Assembly (NCBI RefSeq): GCF_003334785.1
Contig: NZ_QOWV01000024.1
From: Escherichia coli
GTDB lineage: Bacteria; Pseudomonadota; Gammaproteobacteria; Enterobacterales; Enterobacteriaceae
DNA length: 42,324 bases
Reading direction: 5' to 3' (one strand)
This document shows, one piece after another, positions 1 through 3,000 of the stretch (its first letter is position 1; every line of letters begins with the position of its first letter). Position numbers: made by a program.

Positions 1-3000
1 GCTGAACTGTTGCTGGAAGACTACAAAGCCTCCCTGAAATATCTCAGCGATCACCCGAAACTGCAGGGTATTGCCCAGCAGAACAGCTTTAAACACACCT
101 GATAACATAACGTTGTAAAAACCGAATGCCCAGCCTTTAAAAAAACAGCTGGGCATTCGGTTGCTTATTAATCGCAATAATATATTGGCTGTCTATTCAT
201 CGTGTTGATAAGATATATGTTATATGAATGTTTATTAAATGTAGCGATTACCTTTAATGTCACGAAAAGGGATTATTTGCTTACTATTAATTTCCCTGCG
301 TTCTTAAACACGTTTTTGTATTATAAATCCAGTCATCCTGCCCGTAGAACATCACACATTATCATCCTGTTCTCCCGCTTCGTTTAAATTTATTTATCAA
401 TCAATTTGACTTAAGAGGGCGGCGTGCTACATTAATAAACAGTAATATGTTTATGTAATATTAAGTCAACTATGCAATCACTACATGGGAATTGTCTAAT
501 TGCGTATGCAAGACATAAATATATTCTCACCATGGTTAATGGTGAATATCGCTATTTTAATGGCGGTGACCTGGTTTTTGCGGATGCAAGCCAAATTCGA
601 GTAGATAAGTGTGTTGAAAATTTTGTATTCGTGTCAAGGGACACGCTTTCATTATTTCTCCCGATGCTCAAGGAGGAGGCATTAAATCTTCATGCACATA
701 AAAAAGTTTCTTCATTACTCGTTCATCACTGTAGTAGAGATATTCCTGTTTTTCAGGAAGTTGCGCAACTATCGCAGAATAAGAATCTTCGCTATGCAGA
801 AATGCTACGTAAAAGAGCATTAATCTTTGCGTTGTTATCTGTTTTTCTTGAGGATGAGCACTTTATACCGCTGCTTCTGAACGTTTTACAACCGAACATG
901 CGAACACGAGTTTGTACGGTTATCAATAATAATATCGCCCATGAGTGGACACTAGCCCGAATCGCCAGCGAGCTGTTGATGAGTCCAAGTCTGTTAAAGA
1001 AAAAATTGCGCGAAGAAGAGACATCATATTCACAGTTGCTTACTGAGTGTAGAATGCAACGTGCTTTGCAACTTATTGTTATACATGGTTTTTCAATTAA
1101 GCGAGTTGCAGTATCCTGTGGATATCACAGCGTGTCGTATTTCATTTACGTCTTTCGAAATTATTATGGGATGACGCCCACAGAGTATCAGGAGCGATCG
1201 GCGCAGAGATTGTCGAACCGTGACTCGGCGGCAAGTATTGTTGCGCAAGGGAATTTTTACGGCACTGACCGTTCTGCGGAAGGAATAAGATTATAGAGTT
1301 TTACTCAGACATAAAAAAAACCCGGCATAGGGGACCGGGAAGAGGATAGTCTGCCGTCTCCAGACTAATAAACCGTTATAACACTCCCTGTTGGCACGGG
1401 AAACTTTGTGCTCTCAGTAAGTTAAATATAACTTTTACTGGAAATAAGATCAGCCATTTTTTTATAAACATAAGCTATACGCTGTGCGAAAATATATTCG
1501 TGCTGCATTTACTTATTATCAATTAACTGTTATGCAAAACTACTTTGTGGATAAATTTTGGTCCTACCAAATCTGGCAGTTTTTGCGCTAAGAAACAGTC
1601 TGGCATCATTTCATTAGTATACTGAAATTGAAATAATCGCAGTATGAAATATAAGGGATAATCATGACTCATGTCTGCTCGGTGATCCTCATTCGTCGTT
1701 CATTCGATATTTATCATGAACAGCAAAAAATATCGCTGCATAACGAGAGTATTCTGCTGCTGGAGAAAAATTTGGCAGACGATTTTGCGTTTTGTTCACC
1801 GGATACGCGACGACTGGATATCGATGAGCTGACAGTTTGCCATTACTTACAAAATATTCGTCAGCTACCACGCAATTTAGGGTTACACAGCAAAGACCGT
1901 TTGTTAATTAACCAGTCACCCCCCATGCCGCTGGTGACGGCGATTTTTGATAGCTTCAATGAATCCGGGGTAAATTCACCGATACTGAGCAATATGCTCT
2001 ACCTTTCCTGTTTATCGATGTTTTCTCATAAGAAAGAACTGATCCCCTTACTTTTCAATAGCATCAGCACTGTTTCAGGAAAAGTTGAACGCCTTATTAG
2101 CTTTGATATCGCCAAACGTTGGTATCTGCGCGATATCGCGGAAAGAATGTATACCAGCGAGAGTCTAATCAAAAAAAAGTTGCAGGATGAAAATACCTGT
2201 TTCAGTAAAATATTACTCGCCTCCAGGATGTCGATGGCCAGACGATTACTCGAGTTACGTCAAATTCCTCTGCATACTATTGCGGAAAAATGTGGCTATA
2301 GCAGTACATCGTACTTTATAAACACATTTCGACAATATTATGGTGTAACGCCACATCAGTTTGCGCAACATTCGCCAGGTACCTTTTCCTGACATATTTC
2401 GCATTTGAATATTGGTCAGGATCTCACACCTGCTTCATGTGAAACTCTTCCCTGATGATTTCTGCCGGGCTACCGGCTAGTTCTCTTTCGCAGTTTGCCA
2501 GGCGGTATCGGTATTTTCAGGAGGAAAAGACTCGGCATGTTTGGGATTATTAAGCTGACAATTCATACGATTACGGGAATGTGGGTCAGTATTGTGTTGT
2601 TCAAATTGATGACGAATGGCTGGAGTGGTTTCTACTTTCAGTGCTGTGTACTAAGCCTGGTATTCCTGACGGTTAGCTGGTTGTTGAGTGGTGAATGGTT
2701 AGCAGGAAAGAGTAAGGCTGAACCTTCATGTTCAACCTTACTCTCATTTACACGTTACGCTTTTTTAAAGCGGGCAAAGAGATGTTCCACTACAACGAAA
2801 AAGACCGGAACGAAGTAAATTGCCAGCACTGTTGCGGCAAACATCCCGCCCATCACGCCGGTACCTACCGCGTTTTGCGCGCCAGAACCGGCACCATGAC
2901 TGATAACCAGCGGCAGCACGCCGAGAATAAAGGCCAGAGAGGTCATCAGGATTGGGCGTAAACGCATCCGCGCCGCTTCGATGATTGCCTCTATCGGCGT

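What the first reader, a model, noticed from the sequence alone, without database searches (positions are those of the whole stretch)
2537..2818. Unannotated 93-codon hydrophobic ORF between gadW and mdtF, overlapping the mdtF 3' end antisense
An ATG at 2537, with AGGAGG 12 nt upstream, opens MFGIIKLTIHTITGMWVSIVLFKLMTNGWSGFYFQCCVLSLVFLTVSWLLSGEW..., which has two hydrophobic segments and a basic C-terminal tail. It extends 64 nt into the convergent mdtF coding end. I do not know of a gene annotated here. It could be a small membrane protein of the kind often missed in annotation, or a chance ORF in an AT-rich spacer.
Basis: seen in the sequence. Interest (0 to 1): 0.35.

Follow-up and report, generated by a model that had tools for sequence, protein, structure and literature searches.

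The report
Acid-induced small membrane protein gene sORF15
The 93-codon reading frame between gadW and mdtF is a real, conserved gene for a small two-helix membrane protein; it was already reported in 2023 as acid-induced "sORF15" but is still missing from the reference E. coli annotation, and its function is unknown.

Summary
ATG 2537 to TAA 2816-2818 is a 93-codon ORF with AGGAGG 12 nt upstream, two hydrophobic segments, a basic tail and a 64-nt antisense overlap with mdtF. It is absent from the MG1655 RefSeq record and from the PGAP annotations sampled.

It is not new. It is identical in sequence and coordinates to sORF15 of Schumacher et al. 2023 (PMC10746267). That study found it in the gadW 3' region by ribosome profiling, showed 16-fold induction at pH 4.4, and detected FLAG-tagged protein expressed from a plasmid.

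- The ORF is intact at exactly 93 codons in six other Escherichia species representatives and in 8 of 8 sampled E. coli genomes.
- dN/dS is 0.05-0.22 over the 57 codons free of other constraints. Alternative frames give 0.4-3; gadW gives 0.03-0.11.
- E. fergusonii carries a 54-aa homologue at the same position. It has only the two-helix core, with no tail and no overlap.
- No homologue exists outside Escherichia and Shigella.

It is therefore a genus-restricted small inner-membrane protein co-expressed with gadXW. The tail reads through the mdtF terminator hairpin and the mdtF 3' end. Action through a larger membrane protein, MdtF or GadC, is inference only. Novelty: already known. Interest is modest.

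The parts
2519..2524 (+). Shine-Dalgarno AGGAGG, 12-nt spacer to the ATG
   Evidence: AGGAGGAAAA is invariant in all seven Escherichia species representatives. The initiation region 2500-2560 is unstructured (MFE -7.3 kcal/mol, z +0.98).
2537..2818 (+). sORF15 coding sequence, 93 codons plus TAA
   Evidence: Identical in nucleotides, protein and coordinates to sORF15, NC_000913.3:3663464-3663745(-), in Table S7 of PMC10746267. Intact at 93 codons in L002-L007 and L022-L029.
2537..2707 (+). Conserved core, codons 1-57: two predicted transmembrane helices joined by a short loop
   Evidence: dN/dS 0.05-0.22, Fisher p down to 8e-11. Variable sites by codon position 17/10/34. AF2 helices at residues 2-26 and 31-58. 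Hydropathy peaks. This is the part shared with the 54-aa E. fergusonii homologue.
2594..2647 (+). Most conserved stretch, codons 20-37 (VLFKLMTNGWSGFYFQCC), containing the invariant G-W-S-G-F, F34 and C36-C37
   Evidence: Many synonymous changes and almost no replacements across seven species. G28 W29 S30 G31 F32 F34 C36 C37 are invariant, E. fergusonii included.
2709..2744 (-). 16-bp hairpin immediately downstream of the mdtF stop, the probable mdtEF terminator; on the + strand it encodes sORF15 codons 58-70
   Evidence: Minus-strand RNA fold -26.3 kcal/mol, z -5.96, followed by UUUCCUGCU. One compensatory pair change in L005, 2713 T>C with 2740 A>G, both synonymous in the ORF. The simple terminator scan did not call it because the U tract is weak.
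2755..2818 (+). Antisense overlap of the sORF15 tail (codons 73-93 plus stop) with the last 21 codons of mdtF
   Evidence: ORF third positions coincide with mdtF third positions, and all 5 variable sites fall there. Conservation here is explained by mdtF alone. The overlap is absent in E. fergusonii.
1664..2392 (+). gadW, the upstream gene on the same strand; the published RNA-seq places sORF15 in its 3' region
   Evidence: PMC10746267 describes sORF15 as lying in the gadW 3' UTR and in one transcriptional unit with gadX-gadW. No sigma-70-like promoter on the + strand in 2200-3000.
2393..2514 (+). Poorly conserved gadW-sORF15 spacer (contains the published sORF14 at 2439-2480)
   Evidence: 74-76% identity with indels in the more distant species. 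Reduced to about 19 nt in E. fergusonii.
2755..5868 (-). mdtF, the convergent RND efflux permease gene

Best explanation
This is a genuine protein-coding gene, the published sORF15.

Product. It encodes a 93-residue inner-membrane protein. The conserved, functional part is an N-terminal hairpin of two transmembrane helices of about 54-57 residues. The short connecting loop and the start of helix 2 carry an invariant GWSGF-x-F-x-CC motif. By the positive-inside rule both termini should face the cytoplasm.

Tail. In the E. coli to E. albertii clade the reading frame continues for 36 more codons. It runs through the mdtF terminator hairpin and 64 nt into the mdtF 3' end, in the frame where the wobble positions of both genes coincide. 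This adds a strongly basic cytoplasmic tail. E. fergusonii lacks the tail.

Expression. The gene is transcribed from the gadX-gadW side and translated from its own Shine-Dalgarno sequence. It is induced about 16-fold at pH 4.4.

Mechanism (inference only). Like other bacterial small membrane proteins, it probably acts by binding and modulating a larger membrane protein of the acid-stress response. MdtF is the first candidate because its synteny with sORF15 is invariant. GadC is the second.

Shown here: ORF integrity, purifying selection, taxonomic range, the hairpin and the frame relation.
Shown in PMC10746267: ribosome footprints, acid induction, and protein detectable from a plasmid.
Inferred: topology, co-transcription without a promoter of its own, and any partner or function.
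For: Identity with sORF15, with Ribo-seq log2FC +4.2 (padj 1e-38), RNA log2FC +4.0, and a positive pBAD24-sORF15:3xFLAG Western blot.

ORF integrity:
- 93 codons with the same ATG, stop and SD in six GTDB Escherichia species representatives, including E. albertii and E. whittamii. No indels from 2515 to 2818, against indels in the spacer.
- 8 of 8 spread-sampled E. coli genomes are intact.
- Three exact 93-aa variants each occur on at least 1000 contigs. Frameshifted forms occur on 20 contigs or fewer.

Selection:
- dN/dS for codons 1-57 is 0.05-0.22. gadW gives 0.03-0.11 for the same genome pairs. The other + frames give 0.4-3.
- Variable sites by codon position are 17/10/34, p = 5.6e-4.
- Within E. 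coli, 9 of 11 segregating sites are synonymous.

E. fergusonii: a 54-aa homologue sits at the same position between the gadW-like gene and mdtF. Differences by codon position are 21/9/37, although nucleotide identity is only 55%.

Structure: two hydrophobic helices and a basic tail. The initiation region is unstructured.
Against: - No protein has been detected from the native chromosomal locus. The Western blot used an arabinose-induced plasmid.
- Translation efficiency did not change with pH, so footprints simply follow RNA abundance.
- The 12-nt SD-to-start spacing is longer than optimal.
- No phenotype, partner or localisation data exist.
- There is no Pfam, NCBIfam or PDB relative to suggest a function.
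- AcrZ already co-purifies with MdtF (PMC11539335). MdtF therefore may already have a small-protein partner, though this does not exclude another.
- Tail-frameshifted variants and one IS3 insertion exist in natural isolates, so the gene, or at least its tail, is dispensable in some backgrounds.
- The pairwise dN/dS comparisons are not phylogenetically independent.
Confidence: 0.85

Rival explanations
1. Translation of the ORF matters in cis and the protein is a by-product. Ribosomes running through the mdtF terminator hairpin into the mdtF 3' end would protect the gadXW transcript from Rho or RNases. They could also set how far the transcript extends antisense into mdtF, and so tune the convergent gadXW and mdtEF mRNAs, much as GadY does at the gadX 3' end.
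For: The ORF crosses a very stable hairpin and overlaps mdtF by 64 nt. Both transcripts are acid-induced. The GadY antisense precedent lies 1.1 kb away at 1308-1421. No + strand terminator follows the ORF within 2818-3000.
Against: The amino-acid sequence of codons 1-57 is under purifying selection as strong as that on gadW, which a purely cis role does not require. E. fergusonii keeps the two-helix core but stops before its terminator and does not overlap mdtF. The overlap is therefore not the conserved feature. A cis effect could still exist alongside a functional protein.
Confidence: 0.07
2. It is a chance ORF in a moderately AT-rich spacer. The ribosome footprints are pervasive, non-functional translation of a long 3' UTR.
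For: Length alone is not significant: 3% of shuffles reach it, and similar chance ORFs lie antisense to mdtF and mdtE. PGAP and the MG1655 curators do not annotate it. The neighbouring published sORF14 is indeed not conserved.
Against: The ORF is intact with identical boundaries across species whose synonymous divergence reaches 0.8-1.0. dN/dS is about 0.1 and substitutions show 3-nt periodicity. There are no indels, while the adjacent spacer has them. A recognisable homologue survives in E. fergusonii at saturated synonymous divergence.
Confidence: 0.03
3. The conservation reflects a non-coding element, such as the mdtF 3' UTR and terminator, a gadW 3'-UTR-derived sRNA or a regulator binding site, and the open frame is incidental.
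For: The hairpin 2709-2744 is real and shows one compensatory change. This region carries several regulatory RNAs and GadX/GadW sites elsewhere.
Against: Outside the hairpin, substitutions concentrate at third codon positions and synonymous first positions. That is a coding signature, not a structural or binding-site one. There is no Rfam match. No minus-strand ORF could produce the periodicity. Nucleotide identity of the core (82-88% in distant species) is no higher than that of gadW; only the protein is conserved.
Confidence: 0.03

Closest known systems
sORF15 of Schumacher et al. 2023 (mSystems 8:e01037-23; PMC10746267)
   Same: It is the same ORF. Coordinates NC_000913.3:3663464-3663745(-), nucleotide sequence and 93-aa product are identical. 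That paper also reported two predicted TM helices, a possible third helix, acid induction and a positive plasmid Western blot.
   Different: Nothing differs in the object itself. The paper lists blastp homologues above 80% identity under Vibrio, Klebsiella, Salmonella and Enterococcus. My searches of 5.8 and 1.84 billion proteins returned only Escherichia- or Shigella-named entries. Those other labels are probably mislabelled or contaminated records (inference).
AcrZ (49 aa), small-protein partner of the RND pump AcrB
   Same: It is a small hydrophobic inner-membrane protein co-regulated with an RND efflux system. sORF15 lies next to mdtF, an AcrB homologue, in every genome examined and is induced under the same stress.
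   Different: There is no sequence relationship, with no Pfam hit of any kind. sORF15 has two TM helices and AcrZ has one. It is encoded convergently to the pump gene and transcribed with regulators, not with the pump. No binding data exist. AcrZ itself co-purifies with MdtF.
SafA (B1500) and MgrB, small membrane proteins that modulate the PhoQ sensor kinase in the acid and Mg2+ networks
   Same: These are small membrane proteins induced within the E. coli acid-resistance regulatory cascade. They act by binding a larger membrane protein, which is the general working model proposed here.
   Different: They are single-pass proteins with a different sequence and genomic context. There is no evidence that sORF15 touches any sensor kinase. 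The resemblance comes from general knowledge and was not tested.
Antisense 3'-end overlap as at gadY/gadX
   Same: Convergent transcripts in the same island overlap at their 3' ends. GadY lies at 1308-1421(-) in this window.
   Different: GadY is a dedicated non-coding sRNA. Here the overlapping RNA is a translated coding region, and the overlap is missing in E. fergusonii.

Membership tests
Protein-coding gene under purifying selection | Reading frame intact, with the same boundaries, in orthologous loci of diverged relatives | tested here: met
   93 codons with the same ATG and stop in L002-L007 and L022-L029. A 54-codon version is present in E. fergusonii.
Protein-coding gene under purifying selection | dN/dS well below 1 in a segment free of other constraints, and not in alternative frames | tested here: met
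   Codons 1-57 give 0.05-0.22 (Fisher p 1.6e-3 to 8e-11). Frames +1 and +2 give 0.4-3.2.
Protein-coding gene under purifying selection | Three-base periodicity of substitutions | tested here: met
   17/10/34 by codon position across seven species, 21/9/37 against E. fergusonii, and 9 of 11 E. coli polymorphisms synonymous.
Protein-coding gene under purifying selection | Ribosome occupancy and a detectable protein product | not testable with these tools
   Taken from PMC10746267: Ribo-seq coverage across the ORF and a FLAG Western blot from a plasmid. Native-locus protein has not been reported.
AcrZ family (small RND-pump partner) | Sequence membership in the AcrZ family profile | tested here: not met
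   No Pfam-A match even at E <= 10. No NCBIfam match at E <= 1.
AcrZ family (small RND-pump partner) | Single transmembrane helix | tested here: not met
   Two hydrophobic helices.
AcrZ family (small RND-pump partner) | Physical binding to the transmembrane domain of the RND permease | not testable with these tools
   No interaction data exist. Only conserved adjacency to mdtF is shown.
Type I toxin-antitoxin (small hydrophobic toxin with antisense RNA) | A dedicated antisense sRNA that overlaps and represses the toxin mRNA, and toxicity on overexpression | tested here: inconclusive
   The only antisense partner is the mdtF mRNA 3' end, which is not a dedicated sRNA, and there is no Rfam hit. 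The overlap is absent in E. fergusonii. Arabinose overexpression for 1 h gave detectable protein with no toxicity mentioned, but toxicity was not assayed.
Any curated protein family (Pfam-A, NCBIfam, PDB) | A significant profile or sequence match | tested here: not met
   The best PDB E-value is 5.8, which is noise.

The most novel reading that the evidence does not exclude
sORF15 is a genus-specific, possibly de novo-born accessory subunit. Under severe acid stress it binds the MdtEF-TolC pump, or the GadC antiporter, and changes its activity. That would be a second, independently evolved case of AcrZ-type small-protein control. Its basic tail would have been created by overprinting the terminator and 3' end of the gene it regulates.
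Probability: 0.2. Interest if true: 0.55.

Novelty: already known. Interest (0 to 1): 0.3.

Why it matters
The acid fitness island is among the most studied loci in E. coli, yet its reference annotation still lacks a conserved, acid-induced membrane protein gene. The selection evidence here takes sORF15 from a ribosome-profiling candidate to a gene that clearly deserves annotation and a knockout study.

The analysis also separates the ancient two-helix core from a younger tail that overprints the mdtF terminator and coding end. That tells experimenters which part to mutate. It also warns that deletions or tags at the mdtF 3' end, or at the sORF15 3' end, affect both genes. The practical consequence is modest until a function is found.

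Tried and rejected
- ORF length as evidence. Rejected: 3% of shuffles reach 93 codons.
- Alternative TTG start at 2495. The upstream 14 codons lie in the variable spacer, and the TTG is missing in L004. ATG 2537 is the conserved start and the one used in the paper.
- Remote homology. Pfam, NCBIfam and PDB sequence searches, a full HMMER profile search of 1.84 billion representatives, and a second word-indexed search with a core profile that included E. fergusonii all found nothing outside Escherichia and Shigella.
- Independent experimental support. PIRT-Seq, TRAINSPOTTER and the Stringer et al. 2021 Ribo-RET/Ribo-ApiDnaK supplements contain no mention of the sequence, its coordinates or gadW. 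A search for later papers on sORF15 found none.
- Own promoter. No sigma-70-like site on the + strand in 2200-3000. The only + strand terminator-like hairpin (2464-2477) is weak and not conserved.
- Frameshifted protein clusters as evidence against the gene. They are rare. Several sit in assemblies where gadW and mdtF are also fragmented, which suggests indel-prone assemblies. All of them keep codons 1-57.
- Fold search of the AF2 model. Not run, because mean pLDDT is 63.6 and a three-helix peptide would give meaningless matches.
- A linker-fused MdtF+sORF15 AF2 prediction. Considered and dropped. The tool returns no interface metrics, and the paired alignment would be too shallow.
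Full report
**Where we are.** The window is the E. coli K-12 acid fitness island, read in the opposite orientation to MG1655. It runs from the end of gadA through gadX (472-1296, +) and GadY (1308-1421, -; Rfam 150 bits). It continues with gadW (1664-2392, +), mdtF (5868-2755, -) and mdtE. A 508-nt query around the finding is 100% identical to K-12 strains. It is present in 5415 of 5426 complete E. coli genomes at 95-100% identity.

**The observation.**
- ATG at 2537 and TAA at 2816-2818, giving 93 codons with the quoted translation.
- AGGAGG at 2519-2524, 12 nt before the ATG.
- A 64-nt overlap with the convergent mdtF coding end.
- Hydropathy peaks at residues 7-21 and 37-51.
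- Residues 58-93 carry 10 Lys/Arg against 1 acidic residue.
- The current MG1655 RefSeq record has no feature between mdtF and gadW. None of nine PGAP-annotated genomes has one either.

Length alone proves nothing. 156 of 5000 dinucleotide shuffles of 2393-2818 contain an ATG ORF of at least 93 codons. Unannotated ORFs of 114-145 codons lie antisense to mdtF and mdtE nearby.

**It is already published.** A full-text search led to Schumacher et al., mSystems 2023 (PMC10746267). Their Table S7 lists "sORF15", NC_000913.3:3663464-3663745(-), 93 aa. Its nucleotide and protein sequences are identical to window 2537-2818. They report the following.
- They found it by hand while inspecting the gadW 3' UTR.
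- Ribo-seq rises by log2 4.2 at pH 4.4 versus 7.6 (padj 1e-38). RNA rises by log2 4.0, and translation efficiency is unchanged.
- DeepTMHMM predicts two TM helices.
- A pBAD24 construct carrying 15 nt of native upstream sequence and a 3xFLAG tag gives a band on a Western blot.

The exact 93-aa sequence also sits in public protein databases as "hypothetical protein" on at least 1000 contigs, including UniRef A0A0J2E9I0. I found no follow-up paper and no mention in three other E. coli translation-mapping studies.

**New evidence: conservation across species.** I used GadW as an unbiased anchor and fetched the locus from every GTDB Escherichia species representative that has it. This gave six loci with GadW identity of 96% down to 75%, including E. 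whittamii and E. albertii.
- In all six the ORF has the same ATG, the same stop and exactly 93 codons. AGGAGGAAAA is invariant.
- There is not a single indel between 2515 and 2818.
- The spacer 2393-2514 is 74-76% identical in the distant species and carries indels.

Codons 1-57 (2537-2707) overlap neither the hairpin nor mdtF, so they test protein-level selection cleanly.
- Nei-Gojobori dN/dS is 0.05-0.22 with dS up to 1.0.
- Fisher p for K-12 versus E. albertii is 8e-11.
- gadW gives 0.03-0.11 and mdtF 0.02 for the same genome pairs.
- The two other + frames, measured over the full 72 non-overlapping codons (2537-2752), give 0.4-3.2.
- No minus-strand ORF of at least 30 aa could produce the pattern.
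- Variable sites fall 17/10/34 on codon positions 1/2/3 (p = 5.6e-4). Many first-position changes are synonymous Leu changes.
- Codons 20-37 (VLFKLMTNGWSGFYFQCC) accumulate synonymous changes at nine codons and have only two replacements.

**New evidence: variation within E. coli.**
- Eight genomes taken at even steps down the similarity ranking all have an intact 93-codon ORF with 1-2 amino-acid differences.
- Of 11 segregating sites, 9 are synonymous.
- K-12's Cys65 is a minority allele; the others have Arg.

Disruptions are rare.
- One genome of 5426 has an IS3 element inserted at about codon 42.
- Tail-frameshifted forms of 76 or 141 aa occur on 20 contigs or fewer. Several of these assemblies also have fragmented gadW and mdtF. 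All retain codons 1-57.

**New evidence: a distant homologue defines the core.** A profile search of 1.84 billion representative proteins found only copies and fragments of the Escherichia ORF, plus one diverged protein, P0087, of 54 aa. It is encoded in E. fergusonii ATCC 35469 at the same place.
- It starts 19 nt after a gadW-like gene (62% identical to GadW).
- It lies 41 nt before the convergent mdtF (93% identical).
- It aligns with residues 1-53 of sORF15, and BLASTP reports 49% identity over 41 residues. G-W-S-G-F, F34 and C36-C37 are conserved.
- Nucleotide identity is only 55% and synonymous sites are saturated (pS 0.93). Differences still fall 21/9/37 by codon position.
- It ends just before a GC-rich hairpin, so it has no basic tail and does not overlap mdtF.

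A second search with a core profile that included this sequence found nothing outside Escherichia and Shigella. Pfam, NCBIfam and PDB sequence searches are empty. The gene is therefore genus-restricted, like the island that carries it.

**Anatomy of the tail.** Codons 58-70 are encoded by a 16-bp hairpin (2709-2744) that sits 10 nt downstream of the mdtF stop.
- On the mdtF strand it folds at -26.3 kcal/mol (z -5.96) and is followed by UUUCCUGCU. That makes it a plausible, if U-poor, mdtEF terminator.
- One species shows a compensatory stem change that is synonymous on both arms.
- Amino-acid variation in the tail clusters in the loop codons, 63-65.

Codons 73-93 are antisense to the last 21 mdtF codons, in the frame where third positions coincide. 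All five variable sites there are third positions. The perfect conservation of that segment therefore needs no explanation beyond mdtF.

The tail may or may not matter for the protein. The core clearly does.

**Expression signals.**
- The initiation region is unstructured.
- No sigma-70-like promoter lies on the + strand between 2200 and 3000. The only + strand terminator-like hairpin (2464-2477) is weak and not conserved.
- These points fit the published view that the gene is read from gadXW transcripts.
- AF2 on the ortholog alignment gives helices at 2-26, 31-58 and 65-87 with modest confidence (pLDDT 63.6), matching the paper.

**How it most likely works.** Shown, here or in the paper: a translated, acid-induced and selected gene for a two-helix hydrophobic protein.

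Inferred:
- It inserts into the inner membrane with both ends in the cytoplasm. This follows from the positive-inside rule, which the basic tail supports.
- It has a short conserved periplasmic loop.
- It acts by binding a larger membrane protein.

MdtF is the first candidate because gadW-sORF15-mdtF synteny holds in all eight species. GadC is the second, and the 2023 authors proposed both. AcrZ already co-purifies with MdtF (PMC11539335), which neither supports nor excludes this. I put about 0.9 on "real functional protein gene" and about 0.2 on the MdtF/GadC-partner idea.

A purely cis role for translation is unlikely as the sole explanation. The protein sequence is conserved, and E. fergusonii lacks the overlap. 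A chance ORF and a non-coding conserved element are effectively excluded by the codon-level pattern.

**Verdict.** The feature is real and correctly described, and the "missed small membrane protein" reading is right. It was reported in 2023, so it is not novel. The added value here is the evolutionary proof, the definition of the conserved core, and the recognition that the tail overprints the mdtF terminator and 3' end.

Noticed in passing
window 2439-2480 (+): The published companion candidate sORF14 (13 aa, GTG start) is not conserved. Its orthologous frames run 6 to more than 30 codons, one species has GTA at the start, and indels break the frame. It is probably not a functional protein.
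   Followed up: yes
L031 8001-8165 (E. fergusonii ATCC 35469, CU928158.2): A 54-aa GTG-start homologue of the sORF15 core lies 19 nt after the gadW-like gene, with no AGGAGG. This suggests translational coupling there. Upstream neighbours are a second AraC-type gene and a His_Phos_2 phosphatase rather than gadX and gadA, so the island is organised differently.
   Followed up: partly
L030 3145-4700 (E. coli SW070912, NZ_CM129860.1); equivalent to window ~2660: An IS3-family element is inserted inside sORF15 at about codon 42. It is a natural knockout in 1 of 5426 complete genomes and could serve as a ready-made mutant.
   Followed up: partly
window 2729 (codon 65): K-12 carries TGT (Cys65). All eight sampled E. 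coli genomes and most other species have CGT (Arg), so the laboratory strain has the minority allele, located in the hairpin loop.
   Followed up: partly
L016-L021 (141-aa variant P0053); window ~2797-2803: A one-base change in the A-run near the ORF end lengthens the sORF15 frame to 141 aa. In four of the six loci (L017-L019 and, cut, L016) it also changes the mdtF call to 1034 aa. One indel alters both overlapping genes. I did not resolve whether it is real or a homopolymer sequencing error.
   Followed up: partly
protein cluster P0026 (Logan assemblies): This variant differs from K-12 almost only by changes expected from C-to-T conversion (T>I/M, H>Y, A>V, P>F/L, S>L/F, R>C/W). It looks like an assembly of bisulfite-treated or otherwise deaminated reads, not a natural allele.
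   Followed up: no
window 2464-2477 (+): A GCCGG-GCTA-CCGGC hairpin followed by a T-rich stretch lies between gadW and sORF15. It resembles a weak terminator, but it is deleted or interrupted in other species.
   Followed up: partly
PMC10746267, Fig. S9C claim: The paper lists sORF15 homologues above 80% identity in Vibrio, Klebsiella, Salmonella and Enterococcus. Searches of 5.8 and 1.84 billion proteins here returned only Escherichia- or Shigella-named entries. Those labels probably reflect contaminated or mislabelled records.
   Followed up: partly
window 2985-3329 (+), 5867-6304 (+), 6400-6750 (+): ORFs of 114, 145 and 116 codons lie antisense to mdtF and mdtE. They show that ORF length alone is uninformative in this region. 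Their conservation was not examined.
   Followed up: no
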